In this document: piece after piece, positions 22,754-40,638 of the stretch
Layout: the number at the start of each line of letters is the position of its first letter
How positions within the stretch are numbered: the stretch's first letter is position 1
Source of the DNA: a virus
Lineage: Duplodnaviria; Heunggongvirae; Uroviricota; Caudoviricetes
Virus record (IMG/VR): IMGVR_UViG_2778261641_000011
DNA length: 40,638 bases
Direction: 5' to 3' (one strand)
Made by a program: the position numbers and the translations under genes
The notes under the pieces: generated by a model
Database searches by the model: none
What the model saw: the letters and a program-made list of their open reading frames with translations, nothing else
What the model was told of the DNA's origin: nothing

Positions 22754-23248
22754 TCAGATTGTCAGAAACGGGTTAGTGGCTTTCTTCTTCCCCGCCAGGC
22801 CAATCAGACGCTGGCGGCTGCTGGGGTCGAGTCCGAGCATTGCACCCGTGCTGCTCATCTCGGACTCCTGTTCTTTTTTGGCGGTCAGCTCCGGATTTTT
22901 GACCATGCCGCCCATTGCACCGGTGATGGTGTTGCCCTGTATGGCAATATTTTTCACGGCACGTCGCCAGAACTCATAGGCCACGCACCACCGCTCAAGT
23001 ACCGCCAGGTCAGTCACGCACAGCAGGCCCTGACCGCAGAGTTCTTTGGTTGTCAGTTGCCACATGATCGTGGCGAGAGGGAGATCTTCTTCAGCGAACC
23101 ACTCCGGTGGCTCAACACCTTTGATGGGCGTAAAAACAGGTTCATCTTTGTTCAGGGCTCGCTTGCCGGGGTTTCCGGCCAGCGCCTTGCGCGCCGTTGG
23201 CTTGGGGCGACGCCCGGAACGCCCCGCCGTTCCAGCCATATGCGGCAC
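22754..23248 (-). CDS. Terminase small subunit (P27-family-like)
   Basis: 164 aa with a basic N-terminus ([22 protein letters not shown]) typical of small terminases. Confidence 0.7.
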
Positions 23249-23347: not shown

Positions 23348-23393
23348 GCAGTTGAGAATTATTATCACTAGGCAGTTGAGAATTATTATCACT
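23348..23393. repeat. Two tandem 22-bp direct repeats (gcagttgagaattattatcact) between the HNH and terminase genes; candidate cos/terminase recognition element
   Basis: Exact copies at 23348-23369 and 23372-23393; a flanking GC-rich inverted repeat lies at 23291-23340. Confidence 0.5.
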
Positions 23394-34948: not shown

Positions 34949-35189
34949 TTGATTTTCCTTTTATGTATACGGGCTTAAAAGGATACCACCGAGCCTGAAG
35001 TGGTGAAAAGACAGGCACATAACAGCTAAGTATTTTCAACCAGAGAGAATCCTTAGCGTTGTGGTGAATGCGGCTCAGCGCACGCGGGTTAAGGTTGAGG
35101 CTGACAGTCGACCTTCTGTGGATACCCACCCGCCTGGTGTGCAACCTTCGCCAGGCACCGGGAGGCACCCGGCACCACAACTTTATGCT

Positions 35190-35248
35190 GTGTGTAGTCT
35201 TGGCGGTACCAGCTTGTATCCTTGCTTCCGGCTGGTACCGCTCTTTTT
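35190..35248 (+). ncRNA. Candidate small RNA or attenuator: 10-bp hairpin plus U-tract inside a ~400-bp structured non-coding leader
   Basis: cggtaccagc (35204-35213) pairs with gctggtaccg (35231-35240), followed by ctcttttt. The surrounding 35040-35434 has no credible ORF. Confidence 0.25.
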
Positions 35249-35249
35249 A

Positions 35250-35336
35250 CAAAACAGAGAAGAGCATCACCGGACGACGGGCTCATAACCCAATCCATCC
35301 GGGCGGCAGTCACCGCAGGTGTTCTTCTCTGTTTTG
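35250..35336. repeat. 16-bp inverted repeat enclosing ~55 nt of GC-rich sequence
   Basis: caaaacagagaagagc (35250-35265) versus gttcttctctgttttg (35321-35336), 15/16 complementary. Confidence 0.5.
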
Positions 35337-35461
35337 TGGAGAAACTAACCGCCCCTACGGGGGCATTCATGGAAATGTAATTGACTCAATAATCGCCGGA
35401 CGGTGAGGGCTTCCTTTTACCCGAATTCAGCGCGGTGCAGCGCATATACGTGGAGAACAAA

Positions 35462-37768: not shown

Positions 37769-38050
37769 ATGAACACCTTGTTTTTACTGATGGCTGAATT
37801 CAATACCCCAAACATTGAACTCTCAGCAGTTAGCCAAAAGTACTTTGGTATGAGTCCAGCCACGGCAGAAGCAAAAGCAAACGCTTGTAAGTTGCCCGTT
37901 CCAACATATCGCATCGGCACATCACAAAAAGCAAAACGTTGCATCAATATTCAGGATCTTGCGGAATACATAGACAAAAGGCGAGAAGAAGGACGTATCG
38001 AGTGGGAACAGGTCAGAACAGTCAAACAGAAGGACAAAGAACATCACTAA
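37769..38050 (+). CDS. PrtN-like small transcriptional regulator
   Basis: Start at ATG with a GGAG RBS (track ORF from GTG 37742). MNTLFLLMAEFNTPNIELSAVSQKYFGMSPATAEAKANACKLPVPTYRIG resembles PrtN-family proteins. Confidence 0.5.
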   Translation: MNTLFLLMAEFNTPNIELSAVSQKYFGMSPATAEAKANACKLPVPTYRIGTSQKAKRCINIQDLAEYIDKRREEGRIEWEQVRTVKQKDKEHH

Positions 38051-38054
38051 AGAA

Positions 38055-38080
38055 AAAACCCGCCTGAAGGCGGGTTTTCA
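38055..38080. terminator. Strong bidirectional intrinsic terminator
   Basis: aaaaaacccgcc-tgaa-ggcgggtttt, with A/T runs on both sides. Confidence 0.7.
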
Positions 38081-38097: not shown

Positions 38098-38271
38098 TCA
38101 TGCTGCTTTGCGACGACGAAGCTTACCCTGCTGCTCTTTACCAGAGACAGTAGCGTGAGTGAACGCATTAGGAGCAGCCTTCATCAGAACTTCAACAGCA
38201 GCACCCATACCTGCGAATGCTTTCATTGTGTCGAACTTAACCTGTGGCTTGGTTGCTTTTTGATCTTTCAT
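38098..38271 (-). CDS. Small basic protein (57 aa), unknown function
   Basis: ATG with a GGGAG RBS; product MKDQKATKPQVKFDTMKAFAGMGAAVEVLMKAAPNAFTHATVSGKEQQGKLRRRKAA; ends at the bidirectional terminator. Below the 60-aa track cutoff. Confidence 0.45.
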   Translation of the reverse strand: MKDQKATKPQVKFDTMKAFAGMGAAVEVLMKAAPNAFTHATVSGKEQQGKLRRRKAA

Positions 38272-38341
38272 AGAAAACTCCCGAGACAGTAAAGGCGTCT
38301 CTAACCCTTTCTTTAAAGCTAGCTTGTTTCGCTAACTTATG

Positions 38342-38362
38342 CCAATCGATCATGTCGATTGG
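38342..38362. promoter_or_regulatory. Perfect 8-bp inverted repeat (ccaatcga-tcatg-tcgattgg) upstream of the small ORF
   Basis: Palindrome in the intergenic region between the GNAT-like gene and the small ORF. Confidence 0.3.
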
Positions 38363-38467
38363 TGACATCGTTTCTTAGTAGTTTAAGCACAAAACGACTG
38401 CCATAGATGTACCTTTAAGGTAATCTGGACGGGTATCCTACAATTTGTAGACCCTTCTCGTCTATAC

Positions 38468-39004
38468 CTACTGAGCAAATTTAAGAAAGATATCCTGCAG
38501 CTCATCAATGACTGCCGACATCACATAACCGCACTGTTCCATGCGGAAACCAAAAGACTCGTAATACTGCACCAGTTCTGGTACTGGCTCTACAATGTGG
38601 ACAACTTTACATTCAACAGCTTTACAAAATATAAAAGCACTCATAAGAGTGAGTAAAACCATGCGCCCTTTCAATGGGTGAGATTCATCTTCTCTAGAAA
38701 ACCTTTCGATCATATGGATACGAAAGATGTTTTCTTCAACCCCATAAACACAAATTGCTGCTCCTGATGGTATTCCCTGAACCCGACCTTGCTGAACAAG
38801 TTTTATGCAGAACTCATACTTTTCTCTGGAGTTGCCATAGGTACTTAACGCATAGTCCCATTCAAGCTCACCATAGCCACCACACAGAATCTTGTAATCA
38901 TCATTACTGAGCGGACCAACAGCAAGAGGTAAGCCGACATGATCAATAATCAACTGGATATTGTTACGTACTGATTGACCTATCTCGTCCAGGGTAAGCA
39001 TCAT
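38468..39004 (-). CDS. Moron near attR: putative GNAT-fold acyltransferase-like protein
   Basis: 178 aa; AT-richer than the phage core; TATAAT-like -10 upstream; GNAT-like segments (QQGRVQGIPSGAA, VLLTLMSAFIFCKAVECKVVHIV). Fold assignment is tentative. Confidence 0.5.
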   Translation of the reverse strand: MMLTLDEIGQSVRNNIQLIIDHVGLPLAVGPLSNDDYKILCGGYGELEWDYALSTYGNSREKYEFCIKLVQQGRVQGIPSGAAICVYGVEENIFRIHMIERFSREDESHPLKGRMVLLTLMSAFIFCKAVECKVVHIVEPVPELVQYYESFGFRMEQCGYVMSAVIDELQDIFLKFAQ

Positions 39005-39085
39005 GGCCTCTCAAGCGGAACACTAAAAGTCGCATTATATCTCATTCTTAAGCCGCGTATGGATTACACCTTGAAATGAAAACGC

Positions 39086-39129: not shown

Positions 39130-39252
39130 TCAACAACGGTACATCCTATCGAGCATTGGTGCAACGCTAAACCGACCACTCCAGTGAACGTCAGTTTTTT
39201 CAGGCATTGCGCTGGTTTGGTTGATTTTTTGCATTTCAGAATTACCGTGCAT
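39130..39252 (-). pseudogene. dusA: Displaced original 5' end of host dusA (attR), fused to phage sequence
   Basis: Encodes MHGNSEMQKINQTSAMPEKTDVHWSGRFSVAPMLD, about 75% identical to the N-terminus of the intact dusA, then diverges into RMYRC-stop at the crossover core. Confidence 0.7.
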
Positions 39253-39258
39253 TTTCAA
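39149..39258. repeat. attR: host-derived copy of the dusA 5' end
   Basis: Imperfect direct repeat of 1476-1585 sharing the tcgagcat core at 39149-39156. Confidence 0.7.
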
Positions 39259-39615: not shown

Positions 39616-40638
39616 TTATTTCGCCGATTTAACCCCGAATAAATCATAAATTAAATTAGAAGTATCTGTAAGTATTTTAATCTTTTCCTTTGAGTTTGGG
39701 TCAAACGACTTAGCAAAGTCAATTAATTTCGGTGCAGCATCTCGCATTTTGCTTAAAATATCAGGTTCGAGCTTTCCTTCATTCACCAGAAGTGACATTT
39801 TATCCAGATAGTCATCAAATTTCATCCCCCCCCGGTCCGCCAGATGCTTCATCTCTCCCAGGTACTTCTTCATATCACGTTGAGATAATTCTTCAAACTG
39901 AGCTGTCAGATAGTTCTCATTATATTCATTAATATTCACTTTTTCTGCTCCGGCTAAATCTGTGTAGGCACTAGAATATGAAAGTGAAATTAACAGCGAA
40001 GCAAATAATTTTAAGCTGTTGTCATCATGTTCCTGGCAGGCATTAACAAACGTTAAAAAACCAGAACCTATTGCTTGAAAATGTATATTCGCTAAAGGTT
40101 CATTATCCTTAGATTCCTCATAAAATAGCTGAACCGTGGAGGGAAGGCCATTCTTAGTTTCTACATCAAAAGTACATCGTTCAATGGGAGTCGCATCTTT
40201 ATTATCCCCAGGATTACATATACTATTAATCGCGAAATGAAAAATAGCCCGGTCAACAACTGATGCAATAAAGTCACGATCGTTTAAATCCTCATCAGTG
40301 CAATCGTCAATATACTTATTGACCCACACTTTGAGATTAGTTATTTGCTCAATTAAAAACACATTTTTTTTACGTGCATGCCATAAATTATGAGTGATTC
40401 TTTGAATAAACAAATCTATTTTTGCAATAATTATATCCCGATGACGCAGCGCTGAATAATCAATAGACTTACCATATATATTATTTAATTTACCTTTGAT
40501 TGTACCTCTATTATCTAATTTATCTTTGGTTGCATCTATATTATCTAATTTATCTTTGTTTGCATCTTTATTATCGAATTGATTTGAATTGAGTGTTTTA
40601 TTAAAGTATCCAGTTGCACCGGGTATTATCTTCAACAT
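39616..40638 (-). CDS. Host-flank hypothetical protein with a KD-rich tandem-repeat N-terminal region (possibly 5'-truncated by the window edge)
   Basis: 340-aa ORF reaching the last base of the window; AT-rich; N-terminal region repeats KDKLDN-type units. Confidence 0.5.
40481..40593. repeat. Tandem ~30-bp direct repeats (about 3.5 copies) within the host ORF
   Basis: ttatctaatttatctttggttgcatctata-like units at 40481, 40511, 40541 and 40571. Confidence 0.55.

What the first reader, a model, noticed from the sequence alone, without database searches (positions are those of the whole stretch)
38098..39004. att-proximal cargo: GNAT-like moron, palindromic operator candidate and a 57-aa basic ORF
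The last ~1 kb before attR carries a 178-aa AT-richer protein with GNAT-like segments, a perfect 8-bp inverted repeat (38342-38362) and an unannotated 57-aa ORF with a good RBS, ending at a strong bidirectional terminator. att-adjacent cargo is a common site for toxin-antitoxin, exclusion or defence genes. The GNAT assignment is tentative.
Basis: inference. Interest (0 to 1): 0.55.

Follow-up and report, generated by a model that had tools for sequence, protein, structure and literature searches.

The report
Mobile GNAT-fold enzyme plus small partner
The last kilobase of this dusA prophage is a self-contained, horizontally mobile two-gene cassette, an acidic and very divergent GNAT-fold acyltransferase always followed by a small basic protein, whose function is unknown but which is carried by about 7% of complete E. 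coli genomes.

Summary

The 57-aa ORF is a real gene under purifying selection. It is mEp460 gp24 and is annotated in RefSeq.

The two genes form a unit. All 103 GNAT loci examined carry the small gene downstream, in at least four unrelated phage positions. So do relatives at 22-31% identity. The GNAT is always acidic (pI 4.3-4.9) and its partner always basic (pI 9.6-10.8).

The reverse does not hold. About 36% of E. coli carriers of the small gene have a Panacea-type toxin-antitoxin pair in place of the GNAT.

The 8-bp palindrome is better read as an RNA stem than as an operator. It is stem P2 of a leader with four conserved hairpins (P1-P4) upstream of the small gene. The leader shows compensatory changes and a G-U bias on the sense strand (73 cells against 14).

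My best guess, at 0.35, is a toxin-antitoxin-like pair in which the small labile protein neutralises the GNAT. An enzyme-substrate pair is nearly as likely. The function is untested.

The parts
38468..39004 (-). Gene for an acidic, divergent GNAT-fold acyltransferase. It is mEp460 gp23 and PHROG 4350, RefSeq WP_000956557.1-like. The likely true start is the second ATG at 39001 (177 aa).
39007..39039 (-). 5' control region of the GNAT gene: TATAAT (-10-like) at 39034-39039 and Shine-Dalgarno GAGAGG at 39007-12. No -35 element is recognisable.
   Evidence: A TATAAT, TACAAT or TAAAAT element about 30-40 nt upstream of the ATG recurs in most loci from different genomic contexts, while the sequence further upstream is unrelated. 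Promoter function is inferred.
38435..38464 (-). Promoter-like pair TAGACG (38459-38464) - N18 - TAGGAT (38435-38440), at the start of the spacer and overlapping the end of the GNAT gene region.
   Evidence: TAGACG is invariant in 29 distinct spacers; TAGGAT is invariant at five of its six positions (G or C at the third). It matches 8 of 12 consensus positions, below the scan threshold, so one search did not flag it. Function is inferred.
38283..38423 (-). Structured leader RNA for the small gene. A variable hairpin lies between P1 and P2.
   Evidence: RNAalifold consensus and pair counts. 92.2% of cells paired against 88.2% in shuffles (0/500); slid controls give 19-44%. G-U on the sense strand 73 against 14. 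Minimum free energy -46.9 kcal/mol, z -3.29.
38098..38271 (-). Gene for a 57-aa basic partner protein. It is mEp460 gp24, PHROG 2741 and WP_000654815.1. It has one predicted helix, disordered Lys-rich ends, and the C-terminus RRRKAA.
   Evidence: Homologues at 68-98% identity in Enterobacterales. dN/dS about 0.04-0.20, and variable sites by codon position 13/13/32. CAI 0.56, the highest of 153 ORFs in the window. AF2 predicts a helix at 15-32 with pLDDT 60. pI 10.5.
38055..38078 (.). Intrinsic terminator that closes the cassette. It also serves the convergent excisionase gene at 37769..38050(+).
   Evidence: 11-bp perfect stem and a terminator call on the minus strand. The same terminator and its lead-in (AGCTGGTGCTTTTTGAAAACCCGCC..) follow the small gene in most of the enterobacterial loci shown, from other genomic contexts.
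39139..39255 (-). attR: the displaced original 5' end of dusA. Its native promoter would read into the cassette in the lysogen.
   Evidence: 117-nt direct repeat with 1466-1582 at 81% identity. RefSeq annotates a 'tRNA-dihydrouridine synthase, partial' here. No terminator is predicted between it and the GNAT gene. Read-through is inferred.

Best explanation
The region is a mobile two-gene moron. It consists of a weak promoter, a gene for an acidic GNAT-fold acyltransferase, a second promoter-like element with a hairpin-rich leader, a gene for a small basic protein made in large amounts, and a terminator.

I propose that the two proteins bind each other. The single helix and the conserved E-x-x-G-basic tail of the small protein would occupy the acidic substrate groove of the GNAT and keep it inactive.

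The small protein is disordered and ends in a ClpX-degron-like RRRKAA, so it must be made continuously. When its synthesis stops, for example on shut-off by an infecting phage or on loss of the prophage, the GNAT would be freed. It would then acylate a polycationic cellular target and stop growth. This is toxin-antitoxin or abortive-infection logic.

Shown here: the fold, the obligatory gene pairing, the charge complementarity, the mobility, the RNA hairpins, and purifying selection on the small gene. Inferred: binding, toxicity, the target, the degron, both promoters, and any defence role.
For: **Fold.** The model is confident. All listed structural neighbours with a meaningful description are GNATs and include the tRNA-acetylating toxins TacT3, TacT2, AtaT and KacT. 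The best PDB profile matches are GNATs aligned at the beta5-alpha4 motif, placing the near-invariant Y148 (conserved in at least 90% of the 45 family sequences) on their conserved Tyr.

**Pairing.** 103 of 103 GNAT loci carry the small gene 90-250 nt downstream. The same holds in Salmonella and E. hormaechei. Four of five distant relatives examined at 22-31% identity also have it.

**One-way dependence.** The small gene occurs in 562 E. coli genomes and the GNAT in 358. The small gene can therefore stand alone and the GNAT apparently cannot, as expected if the GNAT is the harmful partner.

**Charge.** The GNAT carries net -8 to -18 and the partner +5.5 to +8.7 in every pair.

**Neighbourhood.** The alternative allele at the same slot is a SocA/Panacea antitoxin gene plus a 139-aa gene. 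A distant relative lies between PemK and CcdA genes.

**Small protein.** It is disordered apart from one helix. Its C-terminus RRRKAA resembles the MuA C-motif-2 ClpX degron RRKKAI (PMC12723719).

**High expression design.** Strong SD, stable leader and the highest CAI in the window.
Against: - The small protein has no RHH/DUF1778 domain, and no family hit at all.
- The gene order and the roughly 190-nt spacer differ from known GNAT toxin-antitoxin operons.
- The GNAT is strongly acidic, which argues against tRNA as a target. That the known GNAT toxins are basic is my own knowledge and was not checked here.
- The small protein is far more conserved than the GNAT (for example 95% against 68% amino-acid identity; nucleotide identity 84-99% against 61-81%). 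That is the reverse of the usual toxin/antitoxin pattern and suggests a constraint from a conserved host target.
- The pyrophosphate-loop motif is HPLKGRM, not the canonical Q/R-x-x-G-x-G/A.
- The GNAT-less allele probably arose once, so the asymmetry rests on few events.
- PADLOC gives no hit.
Confidence: 0.35

Rival explanations
1. Writer-substrate pair. The small, abundant basic protein is the effector, binding a conserved host component such as the nucleoid, ribosome or RNA polymerase. The GNAT acetylates its Lys-rich N-terminal tail or its alpha-amine to tune that activity. Neither protein is toxic.
For: The small protein is much more conserved than the GNAT and has the highest CAI in the window. 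This fits an abundant protein constrained by a conserved host target. An acidic GNAT fits a polycationic protein substrate. The top structural neighbours are enzymes acting on N-termini or basic tails: NatD, Naa20, RimI/J, Gcn5 and SpeG. The small gene persists intact without the GNAT. Every partner has Lys within its first 7 residues.
Against: No Lys is invariant across the partners. The residue after the invariant Gly is Arg, Pro or Glu in half of them. Nothing shows what the small protein would bind. The context among toxin-antitoxin genes is not explained.
Confidence: 0.3
2. Two functionally independent morons that merely travel together. The GNAT modifies a cationic small molecule (aminoglycoside, polyamine, streptothricin-like or peptide antibiotic) or a host or phage protein. 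The small protein does something unrelated.
For: Structural neighbours include SpeG, aminoglycoside and streptothricin-type acetyltransferases. The two genes appear to have separate promoter-like elements. The small gene occurs without the GNAT.
Against: Pairing in 103 of 103 loci across at least four genomic contexts, and down to 22% identity, is hard to explain without functional coupling. So is the charge complementarity in every pair.
Confidence: 0.15
3. Counter-defence or lysogenic-conversion enzyme. The GNAT acetylates and disables a host immune or surface-related protein, as AcrVA5 does to Cas12a, with the small protein as cofactor or specificity subunit.
For: The cassette lies in phage accessory slots, including the late-region position upstream of the holin, where read-through of late transcripts would be expected. 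GNAT anti-CRISPRs exist; that is my own knowledge and was not tested here.
Against: There is no similarity to any described anti-defence protein. The module also occurs outside recognisable phages, among toxin-antitoxin and transposase genes.
Confidence: 0.1
4. One reading: 38342-38362 is a DNA operator bound by a dimeric regulator that controls the small gene.
For: It is a perfect 8-bp inverted repeat. It lies downstream of a promoter-like element. Most of its sequence is conserved (ACCAATCG...CGATTGGT) in Enterobacteriaceae.
Against: One arm changes without the other in ways that keep G-U pairing only on the sense strand: P2 shows 24 G-U cells against 3 A-C cells. Two pairs change on both sides. 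It is flanked by further hairpins with compensatory changes, with P3 having 4 such pairs. No DNA-binding protein is encoded in the cassette. Clades such as Edwardsiella and Eeyore lack it.
Confidence: 0.08

Closest known systems
GNAT/RHH type II toxin-antitoxin systems (TacAT, AtaRT, KacAT, ItaRT)
   Different: There is no RHH/DUF1778 domain. The small gene lies downstream, not upstream, and is separated by about 190 nt with its own promoter-like element and leader. The GNAT is acidic rather than suited to binding tRNA. The small protein is more conserved than the GNAT. No sequence-level relation was found.
N-terminal and basic-tail acetyltransferases (NatD/Naa40, Naa20, RimI/RimJ, Gcn5, SpeG)
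   Different: Identity is only 7-14%. The acetyl-CoA loop motif is non-canonical (HPLKGRM). There is no Pfam Acetyltransf hit, even for distant family members. No substrate is known.
Phage mEp460 gp23/gp24 (PHROG 4350 / PHROG 2741)
   Same: These are the same genes, at 99.4% and 100% identity, in the same order between attP and the excisionase gene.
   Different: Nothing differs. Both are annotated as hypothetical, and both PHROGs are listed as of unknown function.
PanA-PanT (Panacea/SocA antitoxin) modules
   Same: They occupy exactly the same slot, between attP and the 57-aa gene, in sister dusA prophages: phages SKA5 and Lys8385Vzw, and 21 of 92 loci fetched by searching with the small gene.
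   Different: The proteins are unrelated. They are absent from this window, and that allele lacks the structured leader.
Moron (promoter-gene-terminator accessory unit of temperate phages)
   Same: The cassette is AT-richer than the backbone, has its own terminator and promoter-like elements, and is inserted at different places in different phages.
   Different: It holds two genes with two separate control regions rather than one gene.

Membership tests
GNAT (Gcn5-related N-acetyltransferase) superfamily | Mixed alpha/beta GNAT fold (beta1-alpha1-alpha2-beta2-4-alpha3-beta5-alpha4-beta6) | tested here: met
GNAT (Gcn5-related N-acetyltransferase) superfamily | Motif A pyrophosphate-binding loop Q/R-x-x-G-x-G/A between beta4 and alpha3 | tested here: inconclusive
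   The loop is present and is the most conserved segment of the family, but it reads H-P-L-K-G-R-M. Only the central Gly matches the canonical motif.
GNAT (Gcn5-related N-acetyltransferase) superfamily | Conserved Tyr/Phe-Gly-Phe segment in alpha4-beta6 (motif B), with Tyr as the usual general acid | tested here: met
   Y148, F153 and G152 are invariant or nearly so across the 45-sequence family alignment. The profile aligns YYESFGF onto FYERFGF of the N-acetyltransferase 9ilr, though at E 0.11, which is not significant.
GNAT (Gcn5-related N-acetyltransferase) superfamily | Detection by a curated sequence model (Pfam Acetyltransf_*, NCBIfam) | tested here: not met
   No Pfam or NCBIfam hit at E<=1 for the window protein. 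Ten distant family members also give none. Some UniRef entries carry the automatic name 'N-acetyltransferase domain-containing protein'.
GNAT (Gcn5-related N-acetyltransferase) superfamily | Acyl-CoA-dependent acyl transfer | not testable with these tools
   This needs an enzyme assay or ligand-binding data.
GNAT/RHH type II toxin-antitoxin (TacAT/AtaRT/KacAT) | Antitoxin with an RHH (DUF1778) DNA-binding domain, encoded upstream in a tight operon | tested here: not met
   The small protein has no Pfam, NCBIfam or PDB match. It has one helix only. It lies downstream after a 196-nt spacer.
GNAT/RHH type II toxin-antitoxin (TacAT/AtaRT/KacAT) | Toxin acetylates aminoacyl-tRNA (needs a tRNA-binding, positively charged surface) | tested here: not met
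   Net charge is -8 to -18 and pI 4.3-4.9 in all 37 pairs. The activity itself is not testable.
GNAT/RHH type II toxin-antitoxin (TacAT/AtaRT/KacAT) | Growth arrest by the GNAT, relieved by the partner | not testable with these tools
   This needs expression experiments.
Known anti-phage defence systems (PADLOC-DB v2) | Match to a model of a described or candidate defence protein | tested here: not met
   No hit for either protein at E<=1.
Palindromic operator | Two-fold symmetric conservation of half-sites, and a cognate DNA-binding protein nearby | tested here: not met
   Arms diverge asymmetrically and keep G-U pairing on the sense strand only. No HTH or RHH protein is encoded in the cassette.
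Structured cis-acting leader RNA | Conserved helices with compensatory changes, and stability above shuffled controls | tested here: met
   6 pairs show changes on both sides. The covariation score is 0.241 against 0.168 (0/500). 92% of cells are paired against 19-44% in slid controls. Folding z-scores are -3.3, -2.95 and -4.8. Caveats: the structure was derived from these same sequences, only 29 related sequences were used, and there is no Rfam family.
ClpX C-motif-2 degron (MuA-like) | Basic C-terminal tail resembling RRKKAI that confers ClpXP degradation | not testable with these tools
   This is a resemblance only: RRRKAA-COOH against the MuA tag CILEQNRRKKAI (PMC12723719). The terminal Ala-Ala or Ala is kept in most homologues.

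The most novel reading that the evidence does not exclude
The pair is a previously undescribed kind of two-protein module. An acidic GNAT-fold enzyme is held in check by, or writes marks on, a histone-tail-like mini-protein encoded next to it. Either it is a new class of GNAT toxin-antitoxin/abortive-infection system with a domain-less pseudo-substrate antitoxin, or it is a phage-borne 'writer plus substrate' pair that reprogrammes an abundant host machine. It would be present in roughly one in fifteen complete E. coli genomes and across Enterobacterales, Shewanella and beyond.
Probability: 0.3. Interest if true: 0.7.

Novelty: new variant of a known kind. Interest (0 to 1): 0.5.

Why it matters
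The cassette is common: 358 of 5426 complete E. coli genomes carry it, including O157, O111 and O103 STEC, as do Salmonella and Enterobacter hormaechei. It moves between unrelated phage positions, yet no family database covers it and no paper I could find addresses it.

If the two proteins are a toxin-antitoxin or defence pair, this adds a GNAT system with a new target class and a minimal antitoxin. If they are enzyme and substrate, it is a rare bacterial case of a dedicated acetyltransferase for a co-encoded mini-protein.

Either way the hypothesis can be tested directly with two plasmids and a mass spectrometer. The leader with four conserved hairpins is also a candidate new cis-regulatory RNA with no Rfam family.

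Tried and rejected
**Sequence-family and RNA-family searches.**
- Both proteins were searched against Pfam, NCBIfam, PADLOC and PDB. Nothing was found. Only PHROGs of unknown function matched.
- Rfam on the region gave only sub-threshold matches to the terminator hairpin.

**Literature.**
- The sRNA-17 lead came from a paper that mentions mEp460. That RNA maps to window 35221-35241(-), about 3 kb away, and is not part of this cassette. The RS218 record is not in the collection.
- Searches by accession, by peptide strings and by topic found nothing on these genes.

**Structure.**
- The afdb50 library was unavailable.
- The small protein alone gave a low-confidence model (pLDDT 60), not worth a fold search.

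**Readings rejected.**
- A leader peptide in the spacer. The 9-codon ORF in the E. coli leader is not conserved (read).
- An intrinsic terminator between the two genes. None is predicted in the spacer; its hairpins were read as lacking U-runs.
- A universal role of the structured leader in the module. The Edwardsiella, Eeyore and distant-relative spacers are not unusually structured.
Full report
**Observation.** The minus strand of 38098-39004 carries a 178-aa ORF (38468..39004) and a 57-aa ORF (38098..38271), separated by 196 nt. The spacer holds the perfect inverted repeat CCAATCGA-N5-TCGATTGG at 38342-38362. The 57-aa ORF has GGGAG six nt before its ATG. It is followed by an 11-bp G+C-rich hairpin (38055-38078) that the scan calls a terminator on the minus strand. 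That hairpin also faces the convergent excisionase gene, which matches Pfam PyocinActivator and PHROG 'excisionase'. The GNAT gene is AT-richer than the prophage, at 0.417 against 0.508. A 117-nt direct repeat of the dusA 5' end (1466-1582 and 39139-39255) marks attL and attR. This agrees with RefSeq annotation of identical E. coli loci and with the dusA-specific integrase family described in PMC4482086. The palindrome alone is weak evidence: 1.9% of shuffles of the spacer contain one, and the window holds 22.

**Identity.** The window is an mEp460-like lambdoid prophage. The two ORFs are mEp460 gp23 (99.4% identity) and gp24 (100%). In the free phage they lie between attP and the excisionase gene, divergent from int. 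Both are hypothetical proteins in RefSeq and belong to PHROGs 4350 and 2741, both listed as of unknown function. Homologues and RefSeq use the second ATG, at 39001, which the Shine-Dalgarno spacing also favours.

**The large protein.** No Pfam, NCBIfam, PADLOC or PDB sequence match was found, with either a single sequence or a profile.
- An AlphaFold2 model built from 32 homologues is confident, at pLDDT 92.6 and pTM 0.89.
- Foldseek against PDB gives 323 hits at E<=1e-3: Gcn5, SpeG, RimJ/I, NatD, AtaT, TacT3 and KacT, with TM 0.5-0.6. Against BFVD it gives viral GNATs at E about 1e-6.
- The protein is roughly equidistant from all GNAT subfamilies.

A full HMMER scan of 1.84 billion representatives finds only 93 relatives at E<=1e-3. 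Ten distant ones also lack Pfam hits, so this is a small GNAT-fold family not represented in Pfam. Family-wide conserved positions are L47, W49, Y148 and F153, together with the segments IE-F, HPL-GRM and EP. A 45-sequence profile aligns the alpha3-beta5-alpha4 part onto three PDB GNATs, at non-significant E of 0.1-0.4. That alignment places Y148 on their conserved Tyr. The pyrophosphate loop reads HPLKGRM rather than Q/R-x-x-G-x-G/A.

**The small protein.** Forty-eight clusters of 68-98% identity occur in Escherichia, Salmonella, Enterobacter, Atlantibacter, Cronobacter, Franconibacter and Hafnia.
- It is a coding gene. Variable sites by codon position are 13/13/32, and dN/dS is about 0.04-0.20.
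- AlphaFold2 predicts a single helix (15-32) with disordered ends at pLDDT 60.
- Its nucleotide sequence is much more conserved (84-99%) than the GNAT gene (61-81%), the spacer (41-84%) or the terminator region (69-80%) in the same locus pairs.
- Its codon adaptation index of 0.56 is the highest of 153 ORFs in the window, above the putative capsid gene at 0.41. The GNAT gene scores 0.28. The weights used are the Sharp and Li E. coli table as I remember it from Biopython.
- It ends in RRRKAA, which resembles the MuA C-motif-2 ClpX degron RRKKAI (PMC12723719). This is a lead only.

**The two genes are a unit.** In all 103 loci recovered with the GNAT (phage records, GTDB genomes, IMG/VR), the small gene lies 90-250 nt downstream on the same strand. 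The cassette occupies unrelated positions:
- the dusA attR end in E. coli and Salmonella;
- just upstream of the holin, after the antiterminator or other late-region genes, in Atlantibacter, Edwardsiella, E. hormaechei and phage Eeyore, where the small ORF is unannotated;
- the middle of a myovirus tail cluster in Photorhabdus;
- a Shewanella prophage end.

The terminator and its lead-in travel with the cassette. A TATAAT or TACAAT element about 35 nt upstream of the GNAT start recurs in most contexts, while sequence further upstream is unrelated.

Four of five relatives examined at 22-31% identity also have a small basic ORF immediately downstream. One lies in a P2-like prophage next to int, and one lies between PemK and CcdA genes. 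The fifth has an acidic 92-aa ORF instead. Ten partners align with an invariant E-x-x-G followed by basic residues, after the helix. In every pair the GNAT is acidic (pI 4.3-4.9, net -8 to -18) and the partner basic (pI 9.6-10.8, net +5.5 to +8.7).

**The reverse dependence does not hold.** Among 5426 complete E. coli genomes, 562 carry the small gene and 358 the GNAT. At least 337 of the GNAT carriers have the whole attR arrangement. In the GNAT-less allele (phages SKA5 and Lys8385Vzw, and 21 of 92 small-gene loci), the GNAT and leader are replaced. The replacement is a SocA/Panacea-domain gene (PF13274, E 2e-19) overlapping a 139-aa gene. The junction lies just upstream of the small gene's Shine-Dalgarno. 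All such loci share that junction, so this is probably one replacement event.

**The spacer.** Twenty-nine distinct enterobacterial spacers align well. Invariant blocks are TAGACG-N18-TA(G/C)GAT, which is promoter-like with 8 of 12 consensus positions and was not flagged by the scan. The arms of four hairpins are also conserved. P1 is TTACC/GGTAA. P3 follows it. P4 is GAGAC/GTCTC and abuts the Shine-Dalgarno.
- RNAalifold recovers P1-P3.
- For the four-helix structure, 92.2% of cells pair against 88.2% in column shuffles (0/500) and 19-44% in slid controls. Six pairs change on both sides, four of them in P3.
- Non-Watson-Crick cells are G-U on the sense strand 73 times, against 14 that would be G-U on the antisense strand. 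A symmetric DNA operator predicts no such bias; a sense-strand RNA does.
- The E. coli leader folds at -46.9 kcal/mol with z -3.29. Atlantibacter and Franconibacter leaders give z -2.95 and -4.8. Edwardsiella, Eeyore and the distant relatives are not unusually structured. The leader is therefore a clade-specific expression element, not a core part of the module.
- Rfam has no matching family.
- Caveats: the structure was derived from the same sequences, and the cells counted are not independent events.

**Interpretation.** Shown here:
- a divergent GNAT fold;
- an obligatory downstream small basic partner;
- charge complementarity in every pair;
- mobility as a terminator-bounded cassette;
- a structured sense-strand leader;
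- purifying selection and expression-type codon usage in the small gene.

Inferred: that the proteins interact. I favour a toxin-antitoxin-like arrangement at 0.35, in which the abundant, probably labile small protein blocks the acidic groove of the GNAT. The reasons are that the GNAT is never found alone, that the same slot otherwise holds a Panacea toxin-antitoxin pair, that a distant relative sits among toxin-antitoxin genes, and that the partner is disordered with a degron-like end.

The nearly equal rival, at 0.30, is a writer-substrate pair with the small protein as effector. It explains better why the small protein is far more conserved and more highly expressed than the GNAT. Independent morons (0.15) and a counter-defence enzyme (0.10) are less likely. 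In the lysogen the displaced dusA promoter could read into the cassette, since no terminator is predicted in between; this is inference.

**Comparison and novelty.** The protein belongs to the GNAT superfamily by fold. It fails the defining features of the GNAT/RHH toxin-antitoxin family: there is no RHH antitoxin, the gene order is reversed, and the surface is acidic. It matches no described defence system. The genes are already deposited as hypothetical proteins, but neither the family, the pairing nor the leader is described in the databases and papers I could search. I rate it a new variant of a known kind, of moderate interest.

Noticed in passing
window 35221-35241 (-), RNA about 35050-35247 (-): The 5' end of sRNA-17 maps here, antisense to or overlapping the 112-aa ORF 35068..35406(+). 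sRNA-17 is a 193-nt ArcA-modulated small RNA of E. coli K1 RS218, reported to lie in an mEp460-like prophage (PMC7719688). That study removed hypothetical genes before defining 'intergenic' regions.
   Followed up: partly
L104 1973-2961 (phage Lys8385Vzw); L103 (phage SKA5); L168, L171-L193: Sister dusA prophages carry a SocA/Panacea-domain gene (190 aa) overlapping a 139-aa gene of unknown family in place of the GNAT and leader. This is presumably a PanA-PanT toxin-antitoxin pair. The 57-aa gene follows 39 nt downstream.
   Followed up: partly
L003 4798-4959 (+) (phage Eeyore); L197 3606-3791 (+): Homologues of the small partner protein are present but not annotated or called in these records. 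In Eeyore four short, probably spurious ORFs are annotated in the same stretch instead.
   Followed up: yes
window 40479-40568: Three tandem 30-nt repeats at about 80% identity lie inside the 5' part of the chromosomal DUF2713 gene (39616..40638, minus strand). They encode the repeated (K)DKLDN motif. The same gene is frameshifted in the closest RefSeq genome.
   Followed up: no
window 23348-23393: A perfect 22-nt direct repeat GCAGTTGAGAATTATTATCACT occurs twice, 24 nt apart start to start, between the ORFs ending near 23248 and 23389. It could be a regulatory or packaging-related site.
   Followed up: no
window 38999-39004: The GNAT gene has tandem ATG ATG. The first-stage 178-aa call uses the upstream one, but homologues and RefSeq start at the second, giving 177 aa.
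   Followed up: yes
L198 3143-3421 (+): The most distant GNAT-family member examined (21% identity, next to phage lysis genes) is followed by an acidic 92-aa ORF rather than the basic partner. This may be a second partner type.
   Followed up: no
window 38098-38271 versus flanks: Synonymous divergence of the small gene (dS 0.08-0.55) is several-fold lower than that of the adjacent GNAT gene, which is saturated at dS > 1.7, in the same locus pairs. Codon bias for high expression is my explanation. Recombinational homogenisation or an overlapping RNA function is not excluded.
   Followed up: partly
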